The notes below the pieces were generated by a model that saw only the letters and a list, made by a program, of their open reading frames with translations, searched no databases and was not told the origin of the DNA. Shown piece by piece: positions 4,514 through 40,591 of a DNA stretch of 64,000 nucleotides. Position numbers and translations under genes: made by a program. Source of the DNA: a virus (taxonomy: Duplodnaviria > Heunggongvirae > Uroviricota > Caudoviricetes); IMG/VR virus record IMGVR_UViG_3300029641_000003; one strand, written 5' to 3'. Position 1 is the first letter of the stretch. Each line of letters begins with the position of its first letter.

Positions 4514-4797
4514 TATGACACCTGAAAAATTGCCTCACCATTGGCGATGACTGAGCCACAAGAAAGGGGATCTCCCACACAAACAACTCCTTTCCCGCCT
4601 ATTGCAAACCATGAGCGCGTCGATACGGCTGATCCGGGGTGCGCGCTATTTCCGTCTGTATGGCTGGGGAACGCTCCCCCATCTACAACTACTGGCTTTC
4701 CATTTACGGTAAACCAGGAAACTGTTTCTGCTACAGGTCGCGGAGGGAATCCTCCATGACCAGAACAAACTGTGTCACTGGTCGCTATTGCACTCAT
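4513..4797 (-). CDS. PAAR-domain spike-tip protein
   Basis: 94 aa with PAAR-like repeats: DTVCSGHGG, VNGKPVVVDGG, AIGGKGVVCVGDPLSCGS. Confidence 0.6.
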   Translation of the reverse strand: MSAIATSDTVCSGHGGFPPRPVAETVSWFTVNGKPVVVDGGAFPSHTDGNSAHPGSAVSTRSWFAIGGKGVVCVGDPLSCGSVIANGEAIFQVS

Positions 4798-4859
4798 CTA
4801 ACACCTCCTTTTTCTTAAATCTTCTCCACTTTGTGATTTTCACTCTTCAGATTTCTTAC

Positions 4860-4965
4860 TTCTCATATTTGTCTCTGATTTGTCTCAAAAGGGTATCATG
4901 GGTACATCATGTATCATCTAAGTCTCTTTTGTGTCTCTTTTACGTCTCTAGTTTGATGCTTTTTA
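4860..4965. repeat. parC-like centromere iterons upstream of parM
   Basis: TGTCTC-containing units at about 11-bp spacing (TTGTCTCTGATTTGTCTCA; AAGTCTCTTTTGTGTCTCTTTTACGTCTCT), resembling R1 parC organisation. Confidence 0.45.
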
Positions 4966-5046
4966 CGCTATCTAACTTCTGGTCTTATTTTGTTTTCTCA
5001 TATAAAATTCAATTCTTTCTCAAATGTGTCTCAGAAGTGGAGCAAT

Positions 5047-6006
5047 ATGATGCGCATTTTTATCGACGATGGTTCTACCAATATCAAAATGCTGTGGGAA
5101 CAAGACGGGGAAACTCGAACCCATATCTGTCCGAACAGTTTTAAACGTGGATGGTCCGCCACATTTGGCGCAGGAAAGCCGTTTAACTACATCATTGATG
5201 ACGAAAAATATTCATATGACTTGATTTCGCCGGATGTGCTGCCGACGAATAATGTGGAATGGCAATACAGCCCGCTTAATGTGCTTGCTGTTCATCATGC
5301 CCTGCTTACAAGTGGCATTGAGCCTCAAGAAGTGGAAATAGTTGTCACGTTGCCACTGGCAGAGTTTTATGACGACGACGCACAATACAACATGAAAAAT
5401 ATTGAGCGGAAAAAGGCCAGCCTGATGCGACCAGTCACCCTTAACAAAGGTCAGGTTTTTACTATCAAAAAAGTGACTGTGCGCCCGGAGTCAATACCCG
5501 CAGGGATCGGTCTGTGCGACAGCCTTGTGCCAGCGCATTCTGTGCTTATTGTTGATCTTGGTGGGACTACTCTGGATGTGTCGATGGTCGCCGGGCAAAT
5601 GACCGCCGTTTCTCGCGTATTTGGCGATTCTAATCTCGGCGTTTCGCTGGTAACTAAAGAGGTCAGACAGGCACTTGCAAAAGCGAATACCGAAACCTCT
5701 AATTATAATGTCGATCAATTAATCATTAATCGTGATGATGAGGATTATTTGACCGACAATATTAACGATCCGTCTGCTATTGATGATGTTAAGAAAGCCA
5801 TTTCGTCAAGCATAGAACGACTCCGTACACGCGTACTGGATGTGATCAGTGATTTCAAAGGATACACGCATGTTATGGTCATTGGTGGCGGCGCGCCGCT
5901 TGTTGCTGATGCTATCCGTGAGCAGGTAAACATTCGTGACGATAGGTTTTTTGTTGCTGATGATCCACAACTTGCTCTTGTCTATGGTCTAAAATCTATC
6001 GGTTGA
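5047..6006 (+). CDS. parM: ParM/StbA actin-like plasmid segregation ATPase
   Basis: Start MMRIFIDDGSTNIK with GGAG upstream; recalled R1 ParM similarity along the length (SPNSFKR, WQYSPLNVLAVHHALLTSG, NIERKKA, GYTHVMVIGGGA). Confidence 0.85.
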   Translation: MMRIFIDDGSTNIKMLWEQDGETRTHICPNSFKRGWSATFGAGKPFNYIIDDEKYSYDLISPDVLPTNNVEWQYSPLNVLAVHHALLTSGIEPQEVEIVVTLPLAEFYDDDAQYNMKNIERKKASLMRPVTLNKGQVFTIKKVTVRPESIPAGIGLCDSLVPAHSVLIVDLGGTTLDVSMVAGQMTAVSRVFGDSNLGVSLVTKEVRQALAKANTETSNYNVDQLIINRDDEDYLTDNINDPSAIDDVKKAISSSIERLRTRVLDVISDFKGYTHVMVIGGGAPLVADAIREQVNIRDDRFFVADDPQLALVYGLKSIG

Positions 6007-6016
6007 TGAGGTTGCC

Positions 6017-6382
6017 ATGTCTCAGGAACGTCGAAAAGTATTGTTTTATCTTCGTCCTGGTCTTAACGCCAGTGAGCAATATGCTGATGCAAAACTTGAG
6101 GGCCATCCATTAAGAGATCGCAATGATATGGCGCGCACAGCGATGCTTGCAGGTATCGCTCTTGGCGAGGTTGATAGCAGATTACCTCCCATGTTGGCAT
6201 CGCTTTTATCCGGTGATAATAGCCCTGAAGTGATCAGAAAAATGCTGGTTTCATTTCTTGAAATTTCGCCTGAAGTTCGGGAAAACCCTGAAGGAAACCC
6301 CTCTGCCTCAGCGGATGTTAAAAAACCTGGCGTTTCGAAAAGCCGCTCTGCACAGAATTTGGCAAACTCACTCCCTGATTAA
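6017..6382 (+). CDS. parR: ParR/StbB-like centromere-binding adaptor
   Basis: 121-aa ORF immediately after parM; N-terminal RKVLFYLRPGLNASEQ...RTAMLAGIALG resembles R1 ParR. Confidence 0.6.
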   Translation: MSQERRKVLFYLRPGLNASEQYADAKLEGHPLRDRNDMARTAMLAGIALGEVDSRLPPMLASLLSGDNSPEVIRKMLVSFLEISPEVRENPEGNPSASADVKKPGVSKSRSAQNLANSLPD

Positions 6383-6399
6383 CAAATCTACATCTTCAA

Positions 6400-6424
6400 A
6401 GGCTGCAATTTGCAGCCTTTTTTA
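6400..6424 (+). terminator. intrinsic terminator after parR
   Basis: AGGCTGCA-ATT-TGCAGCCT hairpin followed by TTTTT. Confidence 0.6.
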
Positions 6425-6439
6425 TACTGTTATGGTTCT

Positions 6440-6660
6440 AATTTGGTGCTCTTTTAGTACCAAAATGGTGTTGTTGTGGTGCTGTTTTGTGTCTGGTTCC
6501 ACTTTGAGGCTGATTTCGTGTTAAACAGGATGCAACAGAGGGCAAATTTCGAGTGTTTAGTGTTATACTTTTGCAAAGCATAGTGACTCCACTATAGAGC
6601 CAAAACCGCATCAATAAGGCTTCTGTTTGGAACCATTTTGATACCAAAATAACACCGAGG
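6440..6660. repeat. centromere-like repeat cluster upstream of parA
   Basis: TTTTAGTACCAAAATGGTGTTGTT and GGTTCCA...TTTGAGGCT motifs, repeated again downstream of parG at 7595-7665. Confidence 0.4.
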
Positions 6661-6667
6661 GACGGAT

Positions 6668-7309
6668 ATGATTATATTGGTAGCCAGCCAAAAAGGTGGC
6701 TGTGGCAAATCAACCACCAGCGTAAACATTTGTGCGGAGCTTGCCCGCGCAAATAAGGACGTAGTTCTACTTGATGCAGATAAGCAAGGAACATCTGCCC
6801 GTTGGGCATCGGACCGTAATGCGGCAGAGGTTTCTCCAGTAATTCATTGCGTCCAGAAGTTTGGGAATATTCGTGAAACACTTCTTGATCTGGACAAGCG
6901 TTATGAATTTGTGGTTGTTGATACCGCTGGTCGTGATAGCAAAGAGATGCGCACCGGTATTACTGCGGCGGATGTTTTGCTTGTTCCATTCAGGCCATCT
7001 CAGCCAGATTTAGACACGCTGGCGCATTTTGTTGAAGTCTTTGAAGAGGCTTTGGATCTGATGCCTAATCCTAGCATTAAGGCGTGCGCAGTTTTAACAA
7101 TGGCCCCATCCAATCCGGTTGTGAATGAAGCCAATGAGGCCAAAGAGTACCTGGCTGAATATCCGCAACTGAAGTTGCTGAAAACCATCATTCGCGATCG
7201 CAAGGTTTACCGCGATTGTATGGCTGAAGGGAAGGGCGTTGTTGAGATGGACAACGGGAAAGCTAAAGGTGAAATCCAGATGTTGGTTAAGGAGTTATTA
7301 AGTGATTAA
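6668..7309 (+). CDS. parA: ParA/ParF-type small Walker ATPase (type Ib partition)
   Basis: 213 aa; deviant Walker A SQKGGCGKST at N-terminus, VVVDTAGR Walker B region. Confidence 0.85.
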   Translation: MIILVASQKGGCGKSTTSVNICAELARANKDVVLLDADKQGTSARWASDRNAAEVSPVIHCVQKFGNIRETLLDLDKRYEFVVVDTAGRDSKEMRTGITAADVLLVPFRPSQPDLDTLAHFVEVFEEALDLMPNPSIKACAVLTMAPSNPVVNEANEAKEYLAEYPQLKLLKTIIRDRKVYRDCMAEGKGVVEMDNGKAKGEIQMLVKELLSD

Positions 7310-10216: not shown

Positions 10217-10250
10217 TGTGTTAGAAAATAAAACTCAATTATCTAACACA
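10217..10250. promoter_or_regulatory. operator: inverted pair TGTGTTAGA(N16)TCTAACACA
   Basis: 9-bp perfect inverted repeat of the dispersed TGTGTTAGAAAAT motif, just upstream of the rdgC start. Confidence 0.5.
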
Positions 10251-21249: not shown

Positions 21250-21260
21250 TGTTAGAAAAT
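21250..21260. promoter_or_regulatory. operator half-site TGTTAGAAAAT
   Basis: Exact core motif at the head of the immI-like leader. Confidence 0.4.
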
Positions 21261-21835
21261 TAATTTATTAATTCAGTCACCATCTGATACAACGTCATTT
21301 CATCAGCATTGTGCCGCCTGAAATCTGCTTTGCCGCCTATTTTTCCATCAGCATGAACAGGGACCAACCAAGGGTATTGCTCGCGGATCTCTGCTGGCGC
21401 TGCGTGTTGATGGTGCCATTTACACAAAGGGAGGACGTATTTATGCGCGTTCTCTGCTGTTCTCCCGAAGATGTGGTGCAGGGATACCACAGGGCTATGC
21501 TGTCCGTGCATATGGCAGGCAATGCAGGGGAGAGCACCGATGGCAGTTTGTATCCGGCGCTCATCTGCTGTGAGTGTTCTGCCTTTCAGGCCGCGTGACG
21601 CGCGAGTTTTTTTGACAGGAGCAGAAGCGGCCTTCTCTTTTCTTCGCTGTTCATATTGCTTCGCTTTTTCAATTTTCTTTTGCCGATATTCAGGCGATGC
21701 GGCTTTTTCTCGCGCACGCTGCTGCTGGCGTTGAGCTTGCTGAAGACGCTTTGCCCTTTGTTCCTCCCGCCATTTCGGATCAGCCAGTTTTTGCAGGGCT
21801 TTTTGTGTCTGTTTCTCCCAATAGCTTTGCTTCAT
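21260..21835 (-). CDS. ref: Ref-like HNH endonuclease (track ORF extends to TTG at 21877)
   Basis: LPCIACHMHGQHSPVVSLHHIFGRTAENAHKYVLPLCKWHHQ HNH motif; Lys/Arg/Gln-rich N-terminus; start taken at ATG 21835. Confidence 0.7.
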   Translation of the reverse strand: MKQSYWEKQTQKALQKLADPKWREEQRAKRLQQAQRQQQRAREKAASPEYRQKKIEKAKQYEQRRKEKAASAPVKKTRASRGLKGRTLTADERRIQTAIGALPCIACHMHGQHSPVVSLHHIFGRTAENAHKYVLPLCKWHHQHAAPAEIREQYPWLVPVHADGKIGGKADFRRHNADEMTLYQMVTELIN

Positions 21836-29055: not shown

Positions 29056-29406
29056 TCATTGTAGTGGGTGGCATTTAACGAAATCGATCACCCTATTCTG
29101 AACTTCGGAAAGAAGGTCTTTTTCACGCGCCAGGACGTCAGGATATTGACGTTCTGGCCTTACCAGATGCCGGAGCTTCCCATTAAGCAGAATGGCCTCA
29201 GAAAACACTTTTACGCTGTGCTTTATCCCCTCTGTTTCACTTTTCAGCGTCAAAATAAAGCGCAATTGCTTATTAGCCTGATTCAGATTCAATACACGAA
29301 TTTGCAGTTCGTCTATGCTGTTTCGCAATGGGATTGATGCCACCACACTGGTGCAGTCTCTGATTGTCTGAATTGAACGGCTAACATTGAGAACGTTATT
29401 GTGCAT
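29056..29406 (-). CDS. hypothetical protein, paralog of lxr-like gene
   Basis: Shares N..RS.QTIR...VV.S.P and F.VTxKS pattern with 29715-30065. Confidence 0.4.
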   Translation of the reverse strand: MHNNVLNVSRSIQTIRDCTSVVASIPLRNSIDELQIRVLNLNQANKQLRFILTLKSETEGIKHSVKVFSEAILLNGKLRHLVRPERQYPDVLAREKDLLSEVQNRVIDFVKCHPLQ

Positions 29407-29714: not shown

Positions 29715-30065
29715 ATGCTTAACTATCACGACAACACGCGTTCTATGCAGACAATCCGCACCAATACAGCGGTGGTCGATAGCTTTCCTGTACATACTCA
29801 AGGCCGTGAAGATACCGTGGAAGTGCGACGCATGTTGTGTCGCCGGTCACCAGGCCACCAGCACTTCATCGTAACGTTTAAAAGCGATGTAGAGCGCGCC
29901 GAGAAAATCTCTAACTCCACATCTCTGGTTAAGCCATTGGCGGAGGTTATTGTGCGCAACAATAAGGCGCGCTTTGTCCTTGAGGAGCATCATTCTGATT
30001 TTAATGAAAAAATCGAGTCAAGCATTTTGCAATATATGAATGGCAAGTTCACGCCACCAATGTGA
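29715..30065 (+). CDS. Lxr-like protein (by position between hot and humD)
   Basis: 116 aa, positional equivalent of P1 lxr; paralog on opposite strand at 29056-29406. Confidence 0.4.
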   Translation: MLNYHDNTRSMQTIRTNTAVVDSFPVHTQGREDTVEVRRMLCRRSPGHQHFIVTFKSDVERAEKISNSTSLVKPLAEVIVRNNKARFVLEEHHSDFNEKIESSILQYMNGKFTPPM

Positions 30066-31228: not shown

Positions 31229-31257
31229 AAAGAAGCCCGCTCAACCAGGCGGGCTTC
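31227..31257. terminator. hairpin terminator between convergent doc and terminase-paralog operon
   Basis: GAAGCCCGC-TCAACCAG-GCGGGCTTC, A-run on plus side gives U-run for minus-strand transcripts. Confidence 0.45.
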
Positions 31258-31263
31258 CTACTA

Positions 31264-32370
31264 TCACTCAATGATTTTTTCTGCTGTCAGCCAGCTAATT
31301 TCTTGCCTGTCTTTCGGCGGTTTTAGCATGTGGGCGTATTCAGCGACATTCTCCCACGGAATTGTTTTTGCCCACTCAACGATAGCATTGTGATCTGCAG
31401 TGAAGAGTGGAATGGTGTGCGATTTCAACCACTCTAATGTTGTAACGCCATGTTTTTTGGCGTGGTGCTGTGCATGATGCCGGGCTATCACTAGTAATGG
31501 CATTGTCCATTCACTACCATCATGCATCGTAAAGCGCATTGTTTTCGGCATATCTGATTCAAGAACAGCCTCCCGAATACCCGGGAACTCACCAAGAACC
31601 ATGCGACGGTAATCATCGCCGCTTTTACCACCATACATTTCTGCGATCCCATCAAGATAATCTTGAGTAAGCAGAGGTGATTCTTCTGCGTTCAGCTTGA
31701 TGGCAGTATAAATACCACATGGATTTTCTTCAGTTTTTGCACGACCATGATGGGAATCGTAAAAGTGTCCATGTTCCTCCTCTGGAGGAGCAGACGTCAA
31801 AAGTATACGTGAGTCGCCACTAACTAAAGATGCTCTTAACATCCCGAATAGCCGATAGCTTACCAGAGCCGCGTCCATAACAATGATCAAAAGATGTTCA
31901 GCATAATATCCGGCTACATCTTCCTCATAATTTAGGCGATATGGTTTAATTTCGCAGCCCCAAGATTTTTGGTAACGATGATTGAGGCCATTTTGGTCGA
32001 TTTGAAAATACTCTCCCAGTAATGGCGCTTTTGTATTAGCTTTCTCCCAATACATATTCATGAGTGAGAGAGTTACCATTCCATTACGCTCAAAGTCTGG
32101 AGCGACCATGACCGTTTTAGACTCAGGCATCAGGATCGTATAAAGGATACAAATGATAGCCATAGCAGACTTATGCCCTATCCCAGTCGGTGTGGTAACG
32201 CTGACTGCTGAACCTTTTTGTTGAATCGCCTCAACAATTAATTTTTGCTGGTGGGTTAACTTAACCCCCATCAACTCTTCTGCTGCTAATGCCCAGTCAT
32301 GGCTATATTTGCTTACCAGCTCTCTCCACTCTGGTAATTCGGTGATGTTTTTAGGCGTCAGCATCAGCAT
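31264..32370 (-). CDS. terminase large-subunit ATPase-domain paralog lacking nuclease domain
   Basis: Aligns by eye with N-terminal half of PacB (37719-39227): SVTTPTGIGHKS vs TVTSGHGTGKSS, LLTSAPPEEEHGHFYDSHHGRAKTEENP vs [27 protein letters not shown]; only 368 aa. Confidence 0.5.
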   Translation of the reverse strand: MLMLTPKNITELPEWRELVSKYSHDWALAAEELMGVKLTHQQKLIVEAIQQKGSAVSVTTPTGIGHKSAMAIICILYTILMPESKTVMVAPDFERNGMVTLSLMNMYWEKANTKAPLLGEYFQIDQNGLNHRYQKSWGCEIKPYRLNYEEDVAGYYAEHLLIIVMDAALVSYRLFGMLRASLVSGDSRILLTSAPPEEEHGHFYDSHHGRAKTEENPCGIYTAIKLNAEESPLLTQDYLDGIAEMYGGKSGDDYRRMVLGEFPGIREAVLESDMPKTMRFTMHDGSEWTMPLLVIARHHAQHHAKKHGVTTLEWLKSHTIPLFTADHNAIVEWAKTIPWENVAEYAHMLKPPKDRQEISWLTAEKIIE

Positions 32371-33157
32371 CCTCCGCTACCTCTGCTTCCACATCTGCCG
32401 CGACTTCATCGGACTGTTCTTCTTTGGCCTGTTCTGCAATCGCCGCACGGCATTTCGCCCTGGCTGTAGCGATAGCCTCAACTTTCACGTCATTAGGAAT
32501 ACTTGAGGTGACATACATATCCAGTTCTTCAGCACGGAATACTGTTTTGCCCAGGAATTCATCAAGCATCCAGGTTAAGGAAAAGTCGCAGGAAATCAGG
32601 TCTACTTCGCCTTCCGCGCCGTTTGGGAAATGGATAAATATCTGTTTGCCCAGGCCAAGCACGCGACAAGCAGCCATCATTACTGCAAGTTCCAGGTCTT
32701 TGTTTTCACCTGCTACTGGTTGATCCACACCAGTAATAGTGCCGTTCAAATGGATATTATATGGCTGATATTTAGAGATACGTTCTACACGCCATGTGCC
32801 GGTTAAGGTTCCCTGGCGGAAGATTATTGGCGTGACCGAAAGCGACAGCTCTCGAATGAGTTGTTGCGCTATGGCTGGGTCATACAGCGGATCTAACGCG
32901 ATGCATCCATAAGACTGCGCCAGTTCAAACAATTCTTCCTGTGTGCACTGAATGCCTCTTGCCGTAATAAAACGTCTGACTCCCGTTTTCCCATCACGCC
33001 AGATAGCAATGCCATTCTCACTATCTAACTCTTCGTCTAAGCCCAGGTATGTAAGGATGGTTCGCTCAATGGTGGCAAAGGGCAGGGACATATCATCGTT
33101 TACATCCACCAGCAGGCCATTACGCAGGCGATATTGAATGTTTTTGGTATTTTCCAC
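32351..33157 (-). CDS. hypothetical protein with acidic C-terminal tail
   Basis: 268 aa; overlaps next gene by 20 nt. Confidence 0.4.
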   Translation of the reverse strand: MENTKNIQYRLRNGLLVDVNDDMSLPFATIERTILTYLGLDEELDSENGIAIWRDGKTGVRRFITARGIQCTQEELFELAQSYGCIALDPLYDPAIAQQLIRELSLSVTPIIFRQGTLTGTWRVERISKYQPYNIHLNGTITGVDQPVAGENKDLELAVMMAACRVLGLGKQIFIHFPNGAEGEVDLISCDFSLTWMLDEFLGKTVFRAEELDMYVTSSIPNDVKVEAIATARAKCRAAIAEQAKEEQSDEVAADVEAEVAEDADADA

Positions 33158-33163
33158 GTTAAA

Positions 33164-33826
33164 TCACTCCACAACAAACCAGTCACAGGCCAGCAGGTCG
33201 CCAACTGAAGGCACCCACGGAACAACTACACCTTGTGCATTTTTTAAGGCGAAATAAGCACCATACGGAACGAGGTCGCCGGGGAAATATCCCTTAATGG
33301 CTTCCATTCGTGCCGGGTACTGTCCTTCAGGAACCAGCCAGCAGAATTGGTTTTCGCCGTTCCACCCACGTCGGGCAACTTTCTTGCCATCCTTCAGCCA
33401 CATCAGCGCGTCAGAAAAGTCGGCTGCTTCAAGGTCGATTTCTTCTTGTAGAGTAACGATACCGCCAGCAGAAATAGTTACGTCCCTGGCTGTAATGAAT
33501 GTCACCCCATTGTGACCTTCAATGCTGAGCGATACCCCATTTTCGGAGGCGTCGTTAACCCGGCTATAGCATTTTTCAAATGCTTTCTCTGGCACATAGA
33601 CCAGATAGCCATTTTCAGCAGTGACGAGATATCCTCCTATTTGCGGTCGGAATTTTTCCAAGAACACACCATCAACACGAAGCGTCATTCCTTTTGGCTC
33701 AACGACTTCGATACTGCCAAAAATGGGCGCATAAGCTTCGCCGACAATAACAATATCTTTGATTTTCGATGCCCGAATGATGCTGTGGCATTTGTATTTG
33801 GGGAACACCTGAAAAGTGCTGACCAT
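33164..33826 (-). CDS. two-domain protein with C-terminal DUF2829 (Tad2-like) domain
   Basis: C-terminal ALMWLKDGKKVARRGWNGENQF...VPWVPSVGDLLACDWFVV fits DUF2829 signature as recalled; N-terminal 130 aa unassigned. Confidence 0.5.
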   Translation of the reverse strand: MVSTFQVFPKYKCHSIIRASKIKDIVIVGEAYAPIFGSIEVVEPKGMTLRVDGVFLEKFRPQIGGYLVTAENGYLVYVPEKAFEKCYSRVNDASENGVSLSIEGHNGVTFITARDVTISAGGIVTLQEEIDLEAADFSDALMWLKDGKKVARRGWNGENQFCWLVPEGQYPARMEAIKGYFPGDLVPYGAYFALKNAQGVVVPWVPSVGDLLACDWFVVE

Positions 33827-33840
33827 AATCCTTCCTCTAC

Positions 33841-34335
33841 TTAAAACTTTGCGTACTGAAGCGGTGTACGCTTGATTTCAACGCGGCCTTCCGATGTGCT
33901 ACCAAAGCCACCAGCACCTCGCTCTGTTTCATCGAGTTCATCAACTTCTACCAGCGATACCGGTTCAACACGCTCAAAAATGCCTTGCATGACCGCCATT
34001 CCTGGCTTAAGGCAAACGCCTTCACCACCGGGATCTGTAATCAGTTTTGCCATGATTTCACCGCGATAATCGGAGTCGATAATTCCTACGCAGTTAGCCA
34101 GGCGCGTATGCTTTTTGCAGCCCAATCCGGAACGAGGATAAAGTTTCAGACACCAGCCAGGAGGGATCGCCATAGCGAGGCCGGTATGCACCCACCAGCT
34201 TGAGGAAATAGCGCCGTTGCTATCGATACCCGGCGTTATTTCAACAGCAACAAAATCCATCGCCGCCGATCCGGCGGTGGCGTAAACGGGGAGTTTTGCC
34301 GCCGGATGAAGGCGTTTCACTTTCACGTTAATCAT
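33841..34335 (-). CDS. dut: dUTPase
   Basis: AGSAAMDF, PRSGLG, GIIDSDYRGEI, GGFGSTS motifs of trimeric dUTPase. Confidence 0.85.
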   Translation of the reverse strand: MINVKVKRLHPAAKLPVYATAGSAAMDFVAVEITPGIDSNGAISSSWWVHTGLAMAIPPGWCLKLYPRSGLGCKKHTRLANCVGIIDSDYRGEIMAKLITDPGGEGVCLKPGMAVMQGIFERVEPVSLVEVDELDETERGAGGFGSTSEGRVEIKRTPLQYAKF

Positions 34336-34820
34336 TGCTTTTTAGCTCTCCGGGTAAATGTATAAATCCGGCGTTTGATATGCGGAGCGGTCGGAACGGA
34401 GACGCAGGTATTCTCGATAACACCTTGTTCCTCCAGCGATCGCACAGCACGCAAGAACTGTGATGCATCACCACCGCCAGACAGCCAGAATTTGCGGGCA
34501 TAGACGCTGCCATTACGGATAATTTCTGCGATCACCCGCGCTTGCGTCTGGCTTTCTCGATAGCCAAAGAGTTCTCTTGCCTCTCCTTGTGGGATAGCCA
34601 ACTGATAGCCTTTCCCGCTACGGTGACGAACAAAACCGTGAGCAATGAGGTTCTTCAGCTCATTTCTGGTGCGGATACACCCGTACTCAGGGAACTGTAT
34701 GTTGATATCACCAGGCTTATGCCATTCATCAGGACTATCAGCCAGGAGGGACAGAAGTTTCCCTGACAGCTCAGGATTAGTGGTTGGATAACAGTTCAGG
34801 GATGGGTAGTAAGTTTTCAT
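34332..34820 (-). CDS. hypothetical protein (162 aa)
   Basis: Coupled ORF in operon downstream of cre. Confidence 0.4.
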   Translation of the reverse strand: MKTYYPSLNCYPTTNPELSGKLLSLLADSPDEWHKPGDINIQFPEYGCIRTRNELKNLIAHGFVRHRSGKGYQLAIPQGEARELFGYRESQTQARVIAEIIRNGSVYARKFWLSGGGDASQFLRAVRSLEEQGVIENTCVSVPTAPHIKRRIYTFTRRAKKQ

Positions 34821-35161
34821 TTGCGCCCCCTTGCCGGATAGCGCCCGGCATTCGCATCAGGGGCAATGAAGCCGCTGGTGGGGCGAGTGAAAACATGGTT
34901 AATTTTCTCGGTCATAGCGCGATAATTTTCCTGATAGTGGGCCAGGAGTTTTTCAGCAGCAATGACGGTTACTTTCCGGACGTAGCGTTCAGCTTCCTCC
35001 AGATTTCGCCAGTTTTTTTCGAGGGTAAATACGGGAACGGCATCAAGTCCGGTCATAACACCGAACACCACGACCGCCTGGTCGCGCTTAACGCCCGCAG
35101 TGAAGGTTATGGTGTAACCGTCAACAGTGAAGCGTTTTGATTCCGTAATACGATTGTGCAA
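34817..35161 (-). CDS. hypothetical protein (114 aa)
   Basis: First gene of operon, behind operator half-site at 35219. Confidence 0.4.
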   Translation of the reverse strand: MHNRITESKRFTVDGYTITFTAGVKRDQAVVVFGVMTGLDAVPVFTLEKNWRNLEEAERYVRKVTVIAAEKLLAHYQENYRAMTEKINHVFTRPTSGFIAPDANAGRYPARGRK

Positions 35162-35218
35162 AGTACCCTCCGCAATAGGCGAGGGTACTTTACATTAAAA
35201 TGCACTGTCTAAAAAGAT

Positions 35219-35229
35219 TGTTAGAAAAT
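35219..35229. promoter_or_regulatory. operator half-site TGTTAGAAAAT
   Basis: Exact core motif between cre stop and start of downstream operon. Confidence 0.4.
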
Positions 35230-35233
35230 TAAT

Positions 35234-36262
35234 TTATGAATCCATCAGGCGACTATTTGCACCAACGGATGCCCCGCTACGGCGCAAATATCGCATAAGT
35301 GTTTCGGGCTTTTTCCATGTGCCTTCCTGCATGATCTCGACCATTGACACCTGTTTCTCAGCCATATCAATTGCCGCACCAACACGCGCACTATGGCCTG
35401 TCCACGTCCGGTATCTTCCTTTGTTCGGCGTGGCATCTCGTTTGTTCAGCAACCCCCAGGCATCGCTGAATATTTTCTCCATTGCAGGTGCAGTAAGGGG
35501 CGTTGTCGTGATTCTGGCCTTATTACTGCGGTGTATTGGCGGGAATAGCACCGCGTCCGGATGTTCTCGAAGTCCGGACACCTCCAGCCAGTCGTTCAGT
35601 ACGGCGGTAGTGTAACGAGAAAGCACCTTATCAAGTCCGGCGGCGGTCGTGATGGTCTTCGTGTGTGAAATATGCAGCGTTACAGTGTCACCTGTTTGGT
35701 CCAGATCTCCGACGCGGATGCGCGAGATTTCTGACATACGCATCAGGGTATTGTATGCCACGAAGAGAAACGCCCGATTGCGCAGGTCCACCAGCCGCTC
35801 GGAACGGGACAGCAACACGTCGAGCAATTTCAGATCATCCCACCGCAACGGTATAGCCTGGCCTGTTCGCTCGCCTTTTTCCGTTGCCGCTTCGCGCCGG
35901 ATGCGCCGCATGGCCAGAGACACACTTTTATCGTCCGACAGCGGCGGGAGGCCACATTGCGAAAGCAGCATGTTAAGCATGGCATAGTGCTTATCAATGG
36001 TGGTCGAAGCCAGATCGGCCTCATGCAACTGGAGAAGATACTCGCGGGCCATTTCCGGCGTAATCGGGAACCAGGGGCGCTGGCGCGAGTTACACCACCG
36101 CGCCCAGGAATGAAACACCAGACGGAGATCACGAAGTGTATTTGGGGCATAAGCTCCCTGGTCGTTCATGAACTGCATAAAGTTTTTTGCAGCTTCCTGG
36201 TATTCGGTGCCAATATCGCGCAGAAAACCACCAGAACCGCCGGAGATAACTAGTTCACCCAT
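35234..36262 (-). CDS. cre: Cre-like tyrosine site-specific recombinase
   Basis: 342 aa; aligns by eye with recalled P1 Cre along the length (WFPITPE, NTLMRMSEISRIRVGDL, HSARVGAAIDMA, MQEGTWKKPETLMRYLR) at roughly 40 percent identity. Confidence 0.85.
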   Translation of the reverse strand: MGELVISGGSGGFLRDIGTEYQEAAKNFMQFMNDQGAYAPNTLRDLRLVFHSWARWCNSRQRPWFPITPEMAREYLLQLHEADLASTTIDKHYAMLNMLLSQCGLPPLSDDKSVSLAMRRIRREAATEKGERTGQAIPLRWDDLKLLDVLLSRSERLVDLRNRAFLFVAYNTLMRMSEISRIRVGDLDQTGDTVTLHISHTKTITTAAGLDKVLSRYTTAVLNDWLEVSGLREHPDAVLFPPIHRSNKARITTTPLTAPAMEKIFSDAWGLLNKRDATPNKGRYRTWTGHSARVGAAIDMAEKQVSMVEIMQEGTWKKPETLMRYLRRSGASVGANSRLMDS

Positions 36263-36413: not shown

Positions 36414-36447
36414 CTAACTTTAAATAATGCCAATTATTTAAAGTTAG
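36414..36447. other. lox-like recombination site (34 bp)
   Basis: CTAACTTTAAATA-ATGCCAAT-TATTTAAAGTTAG: perfect 13-bp inverted arms, 8-bp asymmetric spacer, 150 bp upstream of cre; 9 of 13 arm positions equal to loxP. Confidence 0.65.
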
Positions 36448-37697: not shown

Positions 37698-37721
37698 AGC
37701 CCCGAATCGCCGGGGCTTTTA
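37698..37721 (+). terminator. intrinsic terminator after c1-position gene
   Basis: AGCCCCG-AATCGC-CGGGGCT followed by TTTT. Confidence 0.55.
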
Positions 37722-39227
37722 AATGTCAATATCAGGAATATCCACTTCTGCCAACACCTGATCGCGGAATGTTGCGAGTTCTGCGCCAATGTCTTCATTA
37801 GCAGGCACGTAATCCACCAGCATAGTGAAGCAGTAGGTATCCCATCTGTCCGGCGACTTGATGTTTAACTTCTGCCGCATGTGCTCCTTGCGCATCATCG
37901 CTACCTTCCCTTCTTCGTTAAGCATATACGGGATTTTTGATGCCTGATCTGCGGTTTTGGGGTCACTATCGATACGCATACGCCCGGATTTAATGGCATC
38001 CCCTGCCATAATATTGGCGTAAGCACGCTGATTGACAAAGCGTTCTCTGTCTCTTAGCGCAAACATAGGCTTACCCCAACGGATGCGAACGGGATTAGCA
38101 CCACGGCGGACAAGCTGCGCACACGTATCTGAACCAAAGCCATCAGCATCCACAGCAATGGTGATGTTCGGGTATTTATCAGGAGTGCATTCGTTATAGA
38201 TAAAGTCGGCAAAAGCCAACGGGTCCATAGTGCCTGGCATCTCCAGTATCTTAAAGTTCACAACGCGTCGTTTCTCACGATAACCGGATACTTTGCATAT
38301 ATTGAGCACCGATTTGTCGCGACCATTACCGACGTCAGCGGTCGCTACCCAGCCCCAATCTTTCTCCAGCAACACTTTACGCCGTGCGGCGCGGTCGCAC
38401 TCATCACGACCAAGCAAATACCCGTTAATTGCACGCGGGAACTGGCCCAGCACCTTAACCATGTACTCCAGCGAATCCCTGCCGCCGTACTCAAGCAATT
38501 TCTCACGAATAAAGCTCGGTTCAACGAATGGTGATTCTTCAGAGTTAAGGACTATTGCCGTCCAGACACCTTCCGGATTGCCTTCTGCCTTTGCCCTTGA
38601 ATGGTGAGATTCATAAAAGTAACCGCTTGGACGCGTAGGCTGGGAAAGCATGAGCATACGGTTATCTTTCTGCGTTAACGCCCCCGTCATGACGTTAATC
38701 GCCTTATCGGATATGCCCGATGCTTCATCAAGGATTAGCAGTAAATGCTCCGCGTGCTCCCCCGCCAGTGCCTCTTCGTTACCGAGTCGATAACCTTTAC
38801 AGAGCACTTCCCATATCCCTTTACGGGAACGCTCATAAAACATGGTGTCAGACAGGACAAAATAGGTCTGTAACCAGCCGTGGCGCTTAACAGCATTCGC
38901 CCAAAACTGTTTCACGTATTTGAATACGCCTGTTTTTACCTGGCCTATTTTGTTCGCAACAATAATGACGCGGGCGTCGGGGAACAGGATCATAAAAATT
39001 AGTAGCAACATCGCGGTAAGGGACGACTTACCCGTTCCGTGTCCGGACGTAACGGTCGTCCTGCTCCCCGTCTCCTGCACTGACTGAATGATCTGCTGCT
39101 GCTGGTGGGAGGGGAACATCCCAAAAATATCGACAACCGCCTGGGTAAAGTTGTATCGATACCTGATAACCATATCGCGCCAACGTGGATCACTGGTGAC
39201 GCACTTAATCTTACGACCACCAGCCAT
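37719..39227 (-). CDS. pacB: PacB terminase large subunit
   Basis: 502 aa; Walker A GHGTGKSS, LLLILDEASGI Walker B, C-terminal nuclease-like region with acidic residues. Confidence 0.85.
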   Translation of the reverse strand: MAGGRKIKCVTSDPRWRDMVIRYRYNFTQAVVDIFGMFPSHQQQQIIQSVQETGSRTTVTSGHGTGKSSLTAMLLLIFMILFPDARVIIVANKIGQVKTGVFKYVKQFWANAVKRHGWLQTYFVLSDTMFYERSRKGIWEVLCKGYRLGNEEALAGEHAEHLLLILDEASGISDKAINVMTGALTQKDNRMLMLSQPTRPSGYFYESHHSRAKAEGNPEGVWTAIVLNSEESPFVEPSFIREKLLEYGGRDSLEYMVKVLGQFPRAINGYLLGRDECDRAARRKVLLEKDWGWVATADVGNGRDKSVLNICKVSGYREKRRVVNFKILEMPGTMDPLAFADFIYNECTPDKYPNITIAVDADGFGSDTCAQLVRRGANPVRIRWGKPMFALRDRERFVNQRAYANIMAGDAIKSGRMRIDSDPKTADQASKIPYMLNEEGKVAMMRKEHMRQKLNIKSPDRWDTYCFTMLVDYVPANEDIGAELATFRDQVLAEVDIPDIDI

Positions 39228-40591
39228 TAGTCATCCTCCGGCTGGTCTATCGCAATCTCGTCATCTACAGCATCAAAACCGGTATCCCCCGCGTCATAAT
39301 CACCGTAGATATCAGCCGTGGCGGAAGGGTCTATATTCAGGTCTTCATCATTGGCCTCAAATTCACCGGCTTTACGTTCTCCGTTCCGGTCGTAATCCCC
39401 CATCCCAAGCCTATCAACGATTTTCGCTACTTCAGCCCGGCGTTGTGCAAGCCATTGTGGGAGTCCAGCTTGTTGCTCGGCAAACTGCTTCGCCTCTTTA
39501 TCCAGTTGCTCATCATCAACATCGTTAACGTCAGAAACCGGAGGCTCCAGAAGTGAGATCGCTTTTGCCGCTCGTGCCGCCAGGATAGCCGGGACACTGA
39601 CGCCCTGCCGCTCGATATATTCAGCAACACCTATATCATCCAGCTCCTCGCGCTCACGCATACGTATAGCGGCGGCGATAACTCTGGCGGCGCGTGCGTC
39701 AGCGCCAATGCGATACTCAATCTCCTTGCCACGCTGCTCGGCTTGTAGGCGGGCAATCGCCAGTTTTTCTCTGGCCTCAGCCTCCCTGAATGCCTGCTGA
39801 CGCGCGCCCTGCGCAAGTTTTTCATCCCCCTGGCGTAGCTTCTGCTCGTTCTGATAGATGGCTGCCAGCCTGGTGATAAAGTCATTCATGTAGTAGGCAG
39901 CATCGCTGATCAGTCCGAGAAGACGTTGCCCTGGATGCATCCCCTCTGGCTGTGTATCACCGAGGGCATCAATCTCTTCCTGTAGTCGCTCCGCTTCCTG
40001 GTCAACGATAGCCTGATACTGAATTGCTCGTTCCTGCGCCATCTGTATCGCAAGTCGTAAATGTTCAGTCGCGCCGTTCTTCATCATCTCGCGGGCGACG
40101 TTGGTGGCAGGCAAAGTGGCGCTTTGAGCTGATGAATCAGGGATCATTTGCAATGATCCCTTGTTTCGTTGGGCTTTTTCGCTGCTTTTAGGGATCATTT
40201 CTCCCATTTCATCACAAAATGATCCCTTTACATCCTTGTGTATCTTGTTGTTATTATTTGGCTTTTCTTTGTGATCCGCATTTTGTTTTTGCGGCATGGC
40301 GCGGAACCGTCCACCAGCTAACGGTTTGTCAGTTTTTGTAAATTCTGTGCTTTTATCAGCCTTTTTTTGCTCTTTTTTTGAGCCGGTGGCGCTGCTTTTT
40401 GCGCGCTGTTTTGTACTTTTCCCGGCAGCCTTAGCTTTCGCCTTAACCTCATTTTTTTTCATATTGAGATGCTTTCTGGCGGTGTTAAAGCTGAGGTCAT
40501 GCTGCTCGCAATATTCTTTTATGGTGATCCCGGTTTCTTCTCTTAACTCCAGGAACTTAGCTCGATGCGCTTCCCAGTTAATTAACGTCAT
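39227..40591 (-). CDS. pacA: PacA terminase small subunit
   Basis: N-terminal HTH (ITIKEYCEQHDLSFNTARKHL), start overlaps lpa-like stop, stop overlaps pacB start; pac-like GATC cluster inside 5' third. Confidence 0.7.
   Translation of the reverse strand: MTLINWEAHRAKFLELREETGITIKEYCEQHDLSFNTARKHLNMKKNEVKAKAKAAGKSTKQRAKSSATGSKKEQKKADKSTEFTKTDKPLAGGRFRAMPQKQNADHKEKPNNNNKIHKDVKGSFCDEMGEMIPKSSEKAQRNKGSLQMIPDSSAQSATLPATNVAREMMKNGATEHLRLAIQMAQERAIQYQAIVDQEAERLQEEIDALGDTQPEGMHPGQRLLGLISDAAYYMNDFITRLAAIYQNEQKLRQGDEKLAQGARQQAFREAEAREKLAIARLQAEQRGKEIEYRIGADARAARVIAAAIRMREREELDDIGVAEYIERQGVSVPAILAARAAKAISLLEPPVSDVNDVDDEQLDKEAKQFAEQQAGLPQWLAQRRAEVAKIVDRLGMGDYDRNGERKAGEFEANDEDLNIDPSATADIYGDYDAGDTGFDAVDDEIAIDQPEDD
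40139..40226. other. candidate pac packaging site with four GATC heptamers
   Basis: GGGATCATT-TGC-AATGATCCC palindrome (40140-40160) and GGGATCATTT...AAATGATCCC (40190-40227), two pairs flanking a 30-bp core inside pacA. Confidence 0.5.

What the first reader, a model, noticed from the sequence alone, without database searches (positions are those of the whole stretch)
31264..32370. Terminase large-subunit ATPase paralog without nuclease domain, next to doc
The 368-aa product aligns with the N-terminal ATPase half of PacB (Walker A region and the HGHFYDSHHGRAKTEENP block) but lacks the C-terminal nuclease half. It is the last gene of the operator-controlled cre-proximal operon and converges on phd-doc. 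A nuclease-less terminase ATPase could act as a packaging regulator or a decoy; I do not know its function.
Basis: seen in the sequence. Interest (0 to 1): 0.55.

Follow-up and report, generated by a model that had tools for sequence, protein, structure and literature searches.

The report
Dead terminase paralog in P1-like plasmid-phages
This gene is an old, conserved copy of the phage's DNA-packaging motor protein that has lost its catalytic residues and its nuclease half, gained an unrelated small domain, and sits among swappable accessory genes, so it probably works by binding rather than by packaging DNA; its function has not been tested.

Summary
ORF 31264-32370 (-) encodes a 366/368-aa protein. 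Residues ~7-263 are homologous to the ATPase half of the window's own PacB (34% identity, E 1e-48) and model as a large-terminase (TerL) ATPase fold.

The interpretation needs three corrections:
- It is not an ATPase by sequence. The Walker A lysine and Walker B Asp-Glu are replaced, differently in each allele.
- It is not merely truncated. Residues ~266-368 are a separate ~100-aa domain found widely as stand-alone small phage proteins next to replication and recombination genes. It shows no similarity to the nuclease half.
- It is not a recent decaying duplicate. Synonymous divergence between alleles is 0.3-2.1, dN/dS is 0.23-0.44, and 163 PLSDB plasmids carry it.

It always follows an isaA-like gene, with overlapping stop and start. 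In P1-like elements the pair lies after ssb, where classical P1 carries IS1; P1 and D6 both lack the paralog.

Against a near-identical plasmid, a 5.7-kb stretch has only two divergent islands: the paralog's core (aa ~57-257) and the neighbouring Tad2-like gene.

Best reading (inferred): a non-catalytic TerL mimic made early from a repressor-controlled operon, acting in phage-host or phage-phage conflict. No mechanism is shown.

The parts
31264..32370 (-). Gene for the PacB-derived pseudo-terminase ('X'). It is 368 aa from the first ATG; the probable start is 32364 (366 aa).
   Evidence: ORF. BLASTP to PacB E 1e-48. phrog_5902 full-length match, 2e-127. 163 PLSDB plasmids carry it.
31576..32370 (-). 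N-terminal domain (aa 1-265): large-terminase ATPase fold without catalytic residues.
   Evidence: Foldseek matches to TerL ATPase domains of P74-26 (E 4e-6), T4 gp17 and Sf6 gp2, and to viral TerLs. phrog_2 terminase large subunit 5e-7.
32167..32196 (-). Degenerate Walker A (aa 59-68, TTPTGIGHKS, against PacB TSGHGTGKSS).
   Evidence: Alignment A1. Other alleles read GIGQKT, GIGRPQ, GIGRAP, GIGETS. The permuted relative P0031 reads GSGTGTTT.
31873..31893 (-). Degenerate Walker B (aa 160-166, LLIIVMD, against PacB LLLILDE). Asp is replaced by Met165 and the catalytic Glu by Asp166.
   Evidence: Other alleles have TE, AE, VD, VN or IN at these two positions.
31600..32200 (-). Hypervariable core of the N-domain (aa ~57-257), exchanged as alleles between otherwise near-identical plasmids.
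   Evidence: Sliding nucleotide identity to NZ_CP104667 is 61-92% here and 97-100% in the flanks.
31267..31575 (-). C-terminal ~100-aa domain (aa 266-368) of an unnamed, widespread small-protein family. It is not a nuclease.
   Evidence: 171 representative proteins at E<=1e-3, mostly ~100 aa and stand-alone. Alignment A4. All members hit the phrog_17928 C-terminus. hhalign against the PacB nuclease half gives probability 0.2%.
32351..33157 (-). isaA-like gene. Its stop overlaps the start of X by 14-20 nt.
31235..31250 (-). Terminator-like hairpin followed by a T-run, after the stop of X and between X and doc.
   Evidence: sequence.
35219..35233 (+). Perfect copy of the repeated operator-like 15-mer, between the dre stop and the first gene of the operon that ends with X.
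   Evidence: 20 copies against 2.6 expected; 0 of 100 shuffles reach 20.
33164..35161 (-). Upstream genes of the same operon: a 114-aa and a 162-aa hypothetical, a dUTPase (33841-34335), and a Tad2-like/DUF2829 protein (33164-33826).
   Evidence: Pfam PF00692 3.5e-13 and PF11195 1.6e-22. The gene order is the same in D6-like plasmids.
37719..39227 (-). PacB, the bona fide large terminase of this element. It is the parent paralog, listed for reference.
   Evidence: Intact GTGKSS and LDE motifs. Annotated as terminase in related records, preceded by pacA and lpa.

Best explanation
Shown. The gene encodes a two-domain, non-catalytic protein. The first domain is a PacB-derived terminase ATPase fold. 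It keeps the structural core motifs (the HQQ helix, the S-x-P coupling motif and the G-x-FY-x-SHH block) but has lost the P-loop lysine and the Walker B acidic pair. The second domain is an unrelated ~100-aa module that elsewhere exists as a stand-alone early phage protein beside DNA replication and recombination genes. The gene is translationally coupled to isaA. It lies at the end of an operon preceded by a repressor-operator-like site. It is dispensable, since both P1 and D6 lack it. Its core is exchanged as old, selected alleles, independently of the PacA, PacB and IsaA alleles.

Inferred. It acts by binding, as a structural mimic of the large terminase ATPase domain. It would be made early after infection or induction, as part of the element's accessory conflict gene set. 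The most likely target is something outside the phage's own packaging machinery that recognises terminase-ATPase folds. Host terminase-sensing immune receptors such as Avs1-3 or Upx are one candidate; a competing element's packaging proteins are another. The hypervariable core would be the specificity surface. The constant C-terminal domain would supply a common partner or localisation function.
For: Homology and fold.

Loss of catalytic residues in all six allele classes and in the permuted relative.

Not decaying: dN/dS 0.23-0.44 at dS 0.3-2.1; 163 plasmids; 110 of 5426 complete E. coli genomes, all on plasmids.

Conflict-like evolution:
- Against NZ_CP104667, PacB is 100% identical, PacA 98.7%, Dre 99.4%, IsaA 98.5% and the X C-domain 98.1%. 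The X N-domain is only 76.0% and the Tad2-like protein 61.6%.
- These two are the only divergence islands in 5.7 kb.
- The X allele is uncoupled from the PacA/PacB alleles: 97.7% X N-domain with 74% PacA in CP088573.

Context: same operon as a Tad2-like (anti-Thoeris family) protein. In P1-like genomes it lies between ssb and the hxr-ddrB-ddrA-darA-hdf antirestriction genes, inside the known variable region isaA-IS1-isaB (PMC9603915, PMC6906374).

Early control: operator-like site at 35219-35233; in P1 the ssb-isaA unit is C1-controlled (annotation).

Functional link between the two domains: an independent fusion in the reverse order exists in a Klebsiella P1-like contig.

Precedent: terminase ATPase domains are sufficient ligands for Avs2 and Upx. 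Small phage proteins with terminase-ATPase-like structure (Ksap1, Ksap2, vs.8) bind the same sensor pocket and have no known function (PMC13601566; PMC11564622 for Ksap2).
Against: - No experiment and no complex model supports any partner.
- No hit to PADLOC, NCBIfam or Pfam, and no homolog among described anti-defence proteins was found.
- The known terminase-like accessory proteins (Ksap1/2, vs.8) trigger Avs2 rather than block it, so a mimic could be a liability.
- Avs2 and Avs3 contact the terminase-bound ATP (PMC13601566). A P-loop-dead mimic may simply not be bound.
- The C-terminal domain's neighbourhoods point to DNA metabolism rather than immunity.
- dN/dS is below 1, so the diversity could be old neutral allelic variation moved by recombination.
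- The mosaic evidence rests mainly on one clean pairwise comparison.
- The AF2 model is poor (mean pLDDT 59.8; the C-domain mostly below 50).
Confidence: 0.35

Rival explanations
1. DNA replication or recombination accessory factor. The C-terminal domain is the functional part and docks onto a replication or recombination component (SSB, helicase, annealing protein, or a host nuclease such as RecBCD). The dead terminase fold serves as a DNA- or protein-binding scaffold. The isaA-X pair would then extend the ssb unit.
For: Stand-alone or fused copies of the C-domain lie:
- directly after the DnaB-type helicase ban in P1-like phages (JK004, L011-L013);
- fused to DUF1351 upstream of erf-exonuclease-endonuclease-ssb in Xanthomonas CP2;
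- after a RecE-like exonuclease and an SbcC-like ATPase in Bordetella PHB04;
- next to what look, from their N-terminal sequences alone (my reading, not tested), like RdgC-like and HU-like genes in a contig whose gene content looks Mu-like.

DUF1351 occupies the slot of Mu Gam-like proteins upstream of erf/sak4-ssb modules (PMC8093625). In P1-like genomes the pair follows ssb. In the window the operon also carries a dUTPase. The permuted fusion lies beside a Ref-like RecA-dependent nuclease gene.
Against: It does not explain why the terminase-fold core is the hypervariable, allele-swapped part while the C-domain is constant. An isolated terminase ATPase domain is not a known DNA-end binder (established knowledge of TerL). 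isaA is non-essential in P1 (PMC10695390). No function is known for the C-domain family itself.
Confidence: 0.25
2. Regulator of the element's own packaging. A dominant-negative PacB look-alike competes for PacA, the pac complex, the portal or the PacB ring. This would delay or limit pac cleavage early in the lytic cycle, since pacA-pacB lie directly downstream of the early lpa gene.
For: The closest relatives of the N-domain are the PacB proteins of P1-like phages. The N-terminal ~58 aa and the core motifs shared with PacB are retained in all alleles. Early, operator-controlled expression is likely. lpa-pacA-pacB are contiguous.
Against: The allele of X is independent of the alleles of PacA and PacB. 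Identical PacB goes with a 76% X core, and a 97.7% X core goes with 74% PacA. P1 and D6 package normally without it. Only about a third of isaA-bearing plasmids have it: 163 against 459. It lies far from the packaging genes, among accessory genes.
Confidence: 0.18
3. Inter-element exclusion. The resident plasmid-prophage uses the dead terminase to poison or misdirect the packaging motor of superinfecting related phages or satellites.
For: It sits in hypervariable hotspots of P1-like elements, which carry variable cargo (PMC9603915, PMC6906374). It shows allelic diversity. A dead subunit could in principle poison a ring ATPase (inference).
Against: An operator-like site upstream and the C1-controlled ssb promoter in P1 suggest the operon is repressed in lysogens, when exclusion would be needed. 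It is most similar to the element's own PacB, so self-poisoning would be expected. PADLOC gives no hit.
Confidence: 0.1
4. Non-functional remnant of a pacB duplication.
For: The catalytic motifs are lost. Truncated forms exist (P0006, P0007). P1 and D6 lack it.
Against: The frame is intact in 162 of 163 plasmid hits at >=80% coverage. dN/dS is 0.23-0.44 across saturated synonymous divergence. The C-domain is nearly invariant. The gene was gained independently in two genomic contexts, and a reverse-order fusion exists.
Confidence: 0.03

Closest known systems
PacB, large terminase subunit of P1-like phages (and TerL ATPase domains generally, e.g. T4 gp17, P74-26 TerL)
   Same: The N-terminal ~260 aa are homologous: 34-37% identity, same fold. 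The HQQ helix, the S-x-P coupling motif and the G-x-FY-x-SHH block are shared.
   Different: It has no Walker A lysine, no Walker B Asp-Glu and no RNase H-like nuclease domain. It is not next to pacA, it is not essential, and it carries a foreign C-terminal domain.
Ksap1, Ksap2 and T4 vs.8: small phage proteins with terminase-ATPase-like structure that activate Avs2 (PMC13601566; PMC11564622 for Ksap2)
   Same: They are accessory, lineage-restricted phage proteins that resemble the terminase ATPase domain without being terminases, and their function is unknown.
   Different: Those are much smaller (Ksap1 is 74 aa) and resemble terminase only structurally. X is a clear sequence homolog of its own phage's terminase and has a second domain. 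Whether X binds any Avs was not testable here.
phrog_5902 / phrog_17928 (uncharacterised phage protein families)
   Same: X matches phrog_5902 over its full length (2e-127). Its C-domain and all 39 stand-alone relatives tested match the C-terminus of phrog_17928.
   Different: Neither family has any assigned function. phrog_17928 members carry DUF1351, not a terminase fold, at the N-terminus.
P1 isaA-IS1-isaB region (variable region RD-2 of P1-like phage-plasmids)
   Same: The partner gene is an IsaA homolog. In IS1-free P1-like genomes the isaA-X pair occupies exactly this locus, between ssb and hxr.
   Different: Classical P1 has IS1 and an unrelated isaB where X lies. In the window the pair has moved to the dre-doc interval.

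Membership tests
Large terminase subunit (TerL/PacB) | N-terminal ASCE P-loop ATPase fold of terminase type | tested here: met
   BLASTP to PacB E 1e-48. Foldseek to solved TerL ATPase domains E 4e-6. BFVD TerLs E 3e-9.
Large terminase subunit (TerL/PacB) | Walker A GxxxxGK[ST] with the catalytic lysine | tested here: not met
   X reads GIGHKS, against GTGKSS in PacB. Other alleles read GIGQKT, GIGRPQ, GIGRAP, GIGETS.
Large terminase subunit (TerL/PacB) | Walker B hhhhDE with the catalytic glutamate | tested here: not met
   X reads IIVMD, against LILDE in PacB. Other alleles have TE, AE, VD, VN or IN.
Large terminase subunit (TerL/PacB) | C-terminal RNase H-like nuclease domain | tested here: not met
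   No alignment beyond aa 263. hhalign of the C-domain profile against the PacB nuclease half gives probability 0.2%.
Large terminase subunit (TerL/PacB) | Encoded with a small terminase gene in the packaging module | tested here: not met
   It is preceded by isaA and lies between the dre operon and doc. The real pacA-pacB pair is at 37719-40591.
Large terminase subunit (TerL/PacB) | ATP hydrolysis and DNA translocation or cleavage activity | not testable with these tools
   Needs biochemistry. The sequence predicts none.
phrog_5902 | Full-length profile match | tested here: met
   E 2.2e-127, aa 7-367 against profile positions 3-358 of 359.
C-terminal small-domain family (phrog_17928 C-terminus; possibly DUF5076-like) | Profile match with the conserved MPDGS-W-VP...IA..RA / DT-PLF / DWA-NNM-W-DV / GW signature | tested here: met
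   HMM built from A4 hits aa 273-369 at 8e-36. phmmer finds 171 representatives. phrog_17928 1e-14.
Pfam DUF5076 (PDB 3ic3) | Score above the Pfam gathering threshold (25 bits) | tested here: not met
   14.2 bits, E 0.044. The A4 profile against 3ic3 gives E 0.4. This is only a hint of distant relationship.
Known anti-phage defence system proteins (PADLOC-DB) | Match to any defence-protein model | tested here: not met
   No hit for X, IsaA or the neighbours at E<=0.1.
Terminase-like Avs2 ligands (Ksap1/Ksap2/vs.8 class) | Direct binding to, and activation or inhibition of, Avs-type sensors | not testable with these tools
   No complex prediction or assay was available. Only the shared terminase-ATPase-like fold is established (PMC13601566).

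The most novel reading that the evidence does not exclude
X is an early-expressed, nucleotide-free molecular mimic of the terminase ATPase domain. It would occupy or blunt host receptors that detect large terminases (Avs1-3, Upx and similar) before the real PacB accumulates. Its swappable core alleles would be matched to different sensor variants. That would make it the first phage counter-measure aimed specifically at terminase sensing, and a functional explanation for the enigmatic terminase-like accessory proteins (Ksap1/2, vs.8).
Probability: 0.2. Interest if true: 0.85.

Novelty: new variant of a known kind. Interest (0 to 1): 0.55.

Why it matters
Large terminases are the most widely sensed phage proteins in bacterial immunity, and several phages carry unexplained terminase-like accessory proteins. 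This case is a clear-cut, sequence-verifiable example:
- It is a paralog of the phage's own terminase that has been converted into a pseudoenzyme.
- It is kept under selection in at least 163 sequenced plasmid-prophages of E. coli, Salmonella and Klebsiella.
- It diversifies by allele exchange, together with a Tad2-like gene.

It also explains why the gene is absent from the P1 literature: the reference P1 genome has IS1 at this locus. The system is genetically tractable (P1/D6 genetics, defined Avs/Upx strains). The question of what terminase look-alikes are for therefore becomes directly testable. If the answer is instead packaging control or DNA-end metabolism, it would still define functions for two uncharacterised families, IsaA and the ~100-aa C-domain.

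Tried and rejected
- Pfam, NCBIfam and PADLOC scans of X and IsaA gave nothing significant.
- Profile searches of PDB sequences with the X family found no hit. With the C-domain family, the only hit was 3ic3 at E 0.4.
- P1 IsaB as an IS1-severed remnant of X is rejected: there is no similarity.
- The C-domain as a relic of the nuclease domain is rejected.
- The P1 C1 operator consensus ATTGCTCTAATAAATTT has no match in the window at up to 3 mismatches. A different repeated 15-mer was found instead.
- AF2 on a 7-sequence alignment gave a usable N-domain only. The C-domain is mostly below pLDDT 50 (block means 26-59), so no fold inference was drawn from it.
- The back-translation search of viral contigs with the C-domain alignment failed for lack of a conserved stretch.
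- The AFDB50 fold library was unavailable.
- Literature searches for a PacB paralog or a terminase decoy found nothing on this gene.

Full report
**What the window is.** The region around the finding is about 86% identical at the nucleotide level to the dre-doc end of phage D6. Its humD-phd-doc part is 92-96% identical to P1, P7 and RCS47. The window therefore comes from a D6-like member of the P1 family of plasmid-prophages. On the minus strand the gene order is:
- dre (35234-36262, a Cre-like recombinase);
- a 114-aa ORF and a 162-aa ORF;
- a dUTPase;
- a Tad2-like/DUF2829 protein;
- an isaA-like gene;
- the target ORF.

The target converges on phd-doc, which lie on the plus strand. The real packaging genes lpa-pacA-pacB lie beyond c1, at 37719-40591.

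**Checking the observation.** The ORF exists as described.
- BLASTP against the window's own PacB gives 34% identity over residues 7-263, E 1e-48.
- tblastn against 50,697 phage records ranks PacB of P1-like phages (36-37% identity, E 1e-43 to 5e-48) far above other large terminases (about 25%, E 1e-10 to 1e-14). The gene therefore derives from the PacB lineage.
- An AlphaFold model built on a shallow alignment is confident only for residues ~10-190. That part matches solved terminase ATPase domains: P74-26 at E 4e-6, then T4 gp17 and Sf6 gp2. It also matches viral predicted terminases.
- Nothing aligns to PacB beyond residue 263.
- The gene is the last of its operon. A hairpin with a T-run follows its stop.
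- The likely true start is the second ATG (32364). GGAGG lies six bases upstream, and public annotations also give 366 aa.

**It is a pseudoenzyme, not an ATPase.** I aligned six divergent alleles with PacB. They are the window, P0002, P0003, P0004, P0007 and the P1-type allele from MH422554.
- The P-loop GTGKSS of PacB is replaced by GIGHKS, GIGQKT, GIGRPQ, GIGRAP or GIGETS.
- The Walker B pair DE is replaced by MD, TE, AE, VD, VN or IN.
- Core structural motifs are invariant and identical to PacB: the HQQ helix, S193-x-P195, and G201-x-F-Y-x-S-H-H.

Loss of catalytic residues with retention of the scaffold is the signature of a pseudoenzyme. This conclusion rests on sequence only.

**It is not a recent decaying copy.**
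- Between alleles, synonymous divergence of the N-domain is 0.3-2.1, with dN/dS of 0.23-0.44.
- The gene is intact in 162 of 163 PLSDB plasmids that carry it. These are Escherichia, Salmonella, Klebsiella and Shigella; identity classes are about 97, 82, 63 and 48%.
- The isaA-X pair occurs in 110 of 5426 complete E. coli genomes, always on plasmids.

**The C-terminus is a separate, mobile domain.**
- A search of 1.84 billion representative proteins with residues 264-368 alone found 171 relatives at E<=1e-3. Most are ~100-aa stand-alone proteins.
- They share a clear signature: MPDGS-W-VP..IA..RA..YA, DT-PLF, DWA-NNM-W-DV, GW.
- All of them match the C-terminus of phrog_17928, a family of unknown function.
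- Pfam DUF5076 and PDB 3ic3 are only sub-threshold hints.
- A profile comparison with the PacB nuclease half is negative, at probability 0.2%.

The domain's neighbourhoods are consistent:
- directly after the DnaB-type helicase ban in a subgroup of P1-like phages;
- fused to DUF1351 upstream of erf-exonuclease-endonuclease-ssb in Xanthomonas CP2-like phages;
- after a RecE-like exonuclease and an SbcC-like ATPase in Bordetella PHB04;
- next to genes that look RdgC-like and HU-like in a contig whose gene content looks Mu-like. I identified these only from their N-terminal sequences.

DUF1351 itself sits in the slot of Mu Gam-like proteins upstream of annealing-protein/SSB modules (PMC8093625).

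A Klebsiella michiganensis P1-like contig carries the same two domains in reverse order. There the C-domain is followed by a PacB-like region with the P-loop GSGTGTTT. The gene lies beside a Ref-like nuclease gene and is cut off by a Tn3-type transposase. Two independent fusions argue that the two domains work together.

**The isaA partnership and why P1 lacks the gene.**
- The upstream gene is 47% identical to P1 IsaA, and its stop overlaps the start of X.
- In IS1-free P1-like genomes the order is ssb, isaA, X, hxr. Both proteins are about 47-48% identical to the window's.
- In reference P1, IS1 follows isaA and the next gene, isaB, is unrelated to X. D6 has only isaA.
- IsaA occurs in 459 plasmids and X in 163, so X is an optional downstream partner.
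- This locus is a recognised variable region of P1-like elements (PMC9603915, PMC6906374). isaA is non-essential in P1 (PMC10695390).

**Regulation.** The P1 operator consensus is absent. A different 15-mer, TGTTAGAAAATTAAT, occurs 20 times against 2.6 expected, and several copies form inverted pairs, as P1 operators do. One perfect copy lies between dre and the first downstream gene. In P1 the ssb promoter that would drive isaA-X is C1-controlled (annotation). Early, repressor-controlled expression is therefore likely in both contexts, but it is inferred.

**Evolutionary mode.** I compared the window with plasmid NZ_CP104667.

| Protein | Identity to window |
|---|---|
| PacB | 100% |
| Doc | 100% |
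| Dre | 99.4% |
| PacA | 98.7% |
| IsaA | 98.5% |
| X C-domain | 98.1% |
| X N-domain | 76.0% |
| Tad2-like protein | 61.6% |

A 100-nt sliding comparison shows exactly two divergence islands in 5.7 kb: the Tad2-like gene, and codons ~57-257 of X, beginning at the degenerate P-loop.

Other plasmids combine a 97.7% X core with 73% IsaA and 74% PacA. Others again combine a 52% X core with a 96% C-domain. The X core is thus an exchangeable allele cassette, unlinked to the PacA, PacB and IsaA alleles. It behaves like the neighbouring member of an anti-defence family.

**Interpretation.** The following are established:
- a terminase-derived pseudoenzyme fused to a small early-gene domain;
- coupling to isaA;
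- accessory status;
- maintenance by selection;
- allelic variability.

The function is inferred. I favour a binding or mimicry role in conflict with the host or with competing elements (confidence about 0.35). The reasons are the evolutionary mode, the company it keeps (Tad2-like here, the Dar antirestriction genes in P1-like genomes), its early control, and current knowledge of terminase sensing. Terminase ATPase domains are sufficient ligands for Avs2 and Upx, and unexplained terminase-like accessory proteins already exist (PMC13601566, PMC11564622).

Rival readings:
- The DNA-metabolism reading (0.25) rests on the C-domain's neighbourhoods.
- The packaging-regulator reading (0.18) is weakened by the lack of allele linkage with PacA and PacB, and by dispensability.
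- Prophage-mediated exclusion (0.1) conflicts with the probable repression in lysogens.
- A dead remnant (0.03) is contradicted by the selection data.

**Limits.**
- No partner, activity or expression was measured.
- The structure model is weak outside the N-domain core.
- The mosaic argument is strongest for one plasmid pair.
- Anti-defence protein catalogues could not be searched directly.

Noticed in passing
window 33164-33826 (-): A Tad2-like (PF11195, anti-Thoeris family) protein with an extra ~110-aa N-terminal half that D6 lacks. It exists in at least two diverged alleles affecting both halves. It is the only other divergence island (58-85% nucleotide identity) relative to a near-identical plasmid.
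   Followed up: partly
window, 20 sites, e.g. 35219-35233, 21250-21264; inverted pairs at 10219/10234, 21882/21897, 41058/41073, 44996/45011: The repeated 15-mer TGTTAGAAAATTAAT occurs 20 times against 2.6 expected. It is arranged like the monovalent and bivalent C1 operators of P1 but has a different sequence. It is probably the D6-type repressor operator set.
   Followed up: partly
window 36414-36447: A perfect 15-nt inverted repeat with a 4-nt spacer (CTAACTTTAAATAAT GCCA ATTATTTAAAGTTAG) upstream of dre. It matches, from memory, the rox target of the Dre recombinase.
   Followed up: no
window 29056-29406 (-) and 29715-30065 (+): Two 116-aa paralogs (35% identity, E 4e-9) in opposite orientation flank the hot (DNA polymerase III theta) gene. 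Their function is unknown.
   Followed up: partly
L004 (P1 NC_005856) 4570-7133 versus L002/L003: Reference P1 has IS1 plus an unrelated isaB exactly where IS1-free P1-like genomes carry the PacB paralog. P1 IsaA is also annotated about 56 aa longer at its N-terminus than its homologs.
   Followed up: partly
L018 8001-10384 (Klebsiella michiganensis contig): A reverse-order fusion (small domain first, then a PacB-like region with P-loop GSGTGTTT). It is truncated by a Tn3-family transposase gene and lies next to a Ref-like RecA-dependent nuclease gene, with an AbiH gene about 5.5 kb away on the same contig.
   Followed up: partly
window 35157-35194: A 14-bp GC-rich hairpin lies between the operator-like site and the TTG start of the first gene downstream of dre. 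It may terminate dre transcription or attenuate the downstream operon.
   Followed up: no
[not shown]
   Followed up: partly
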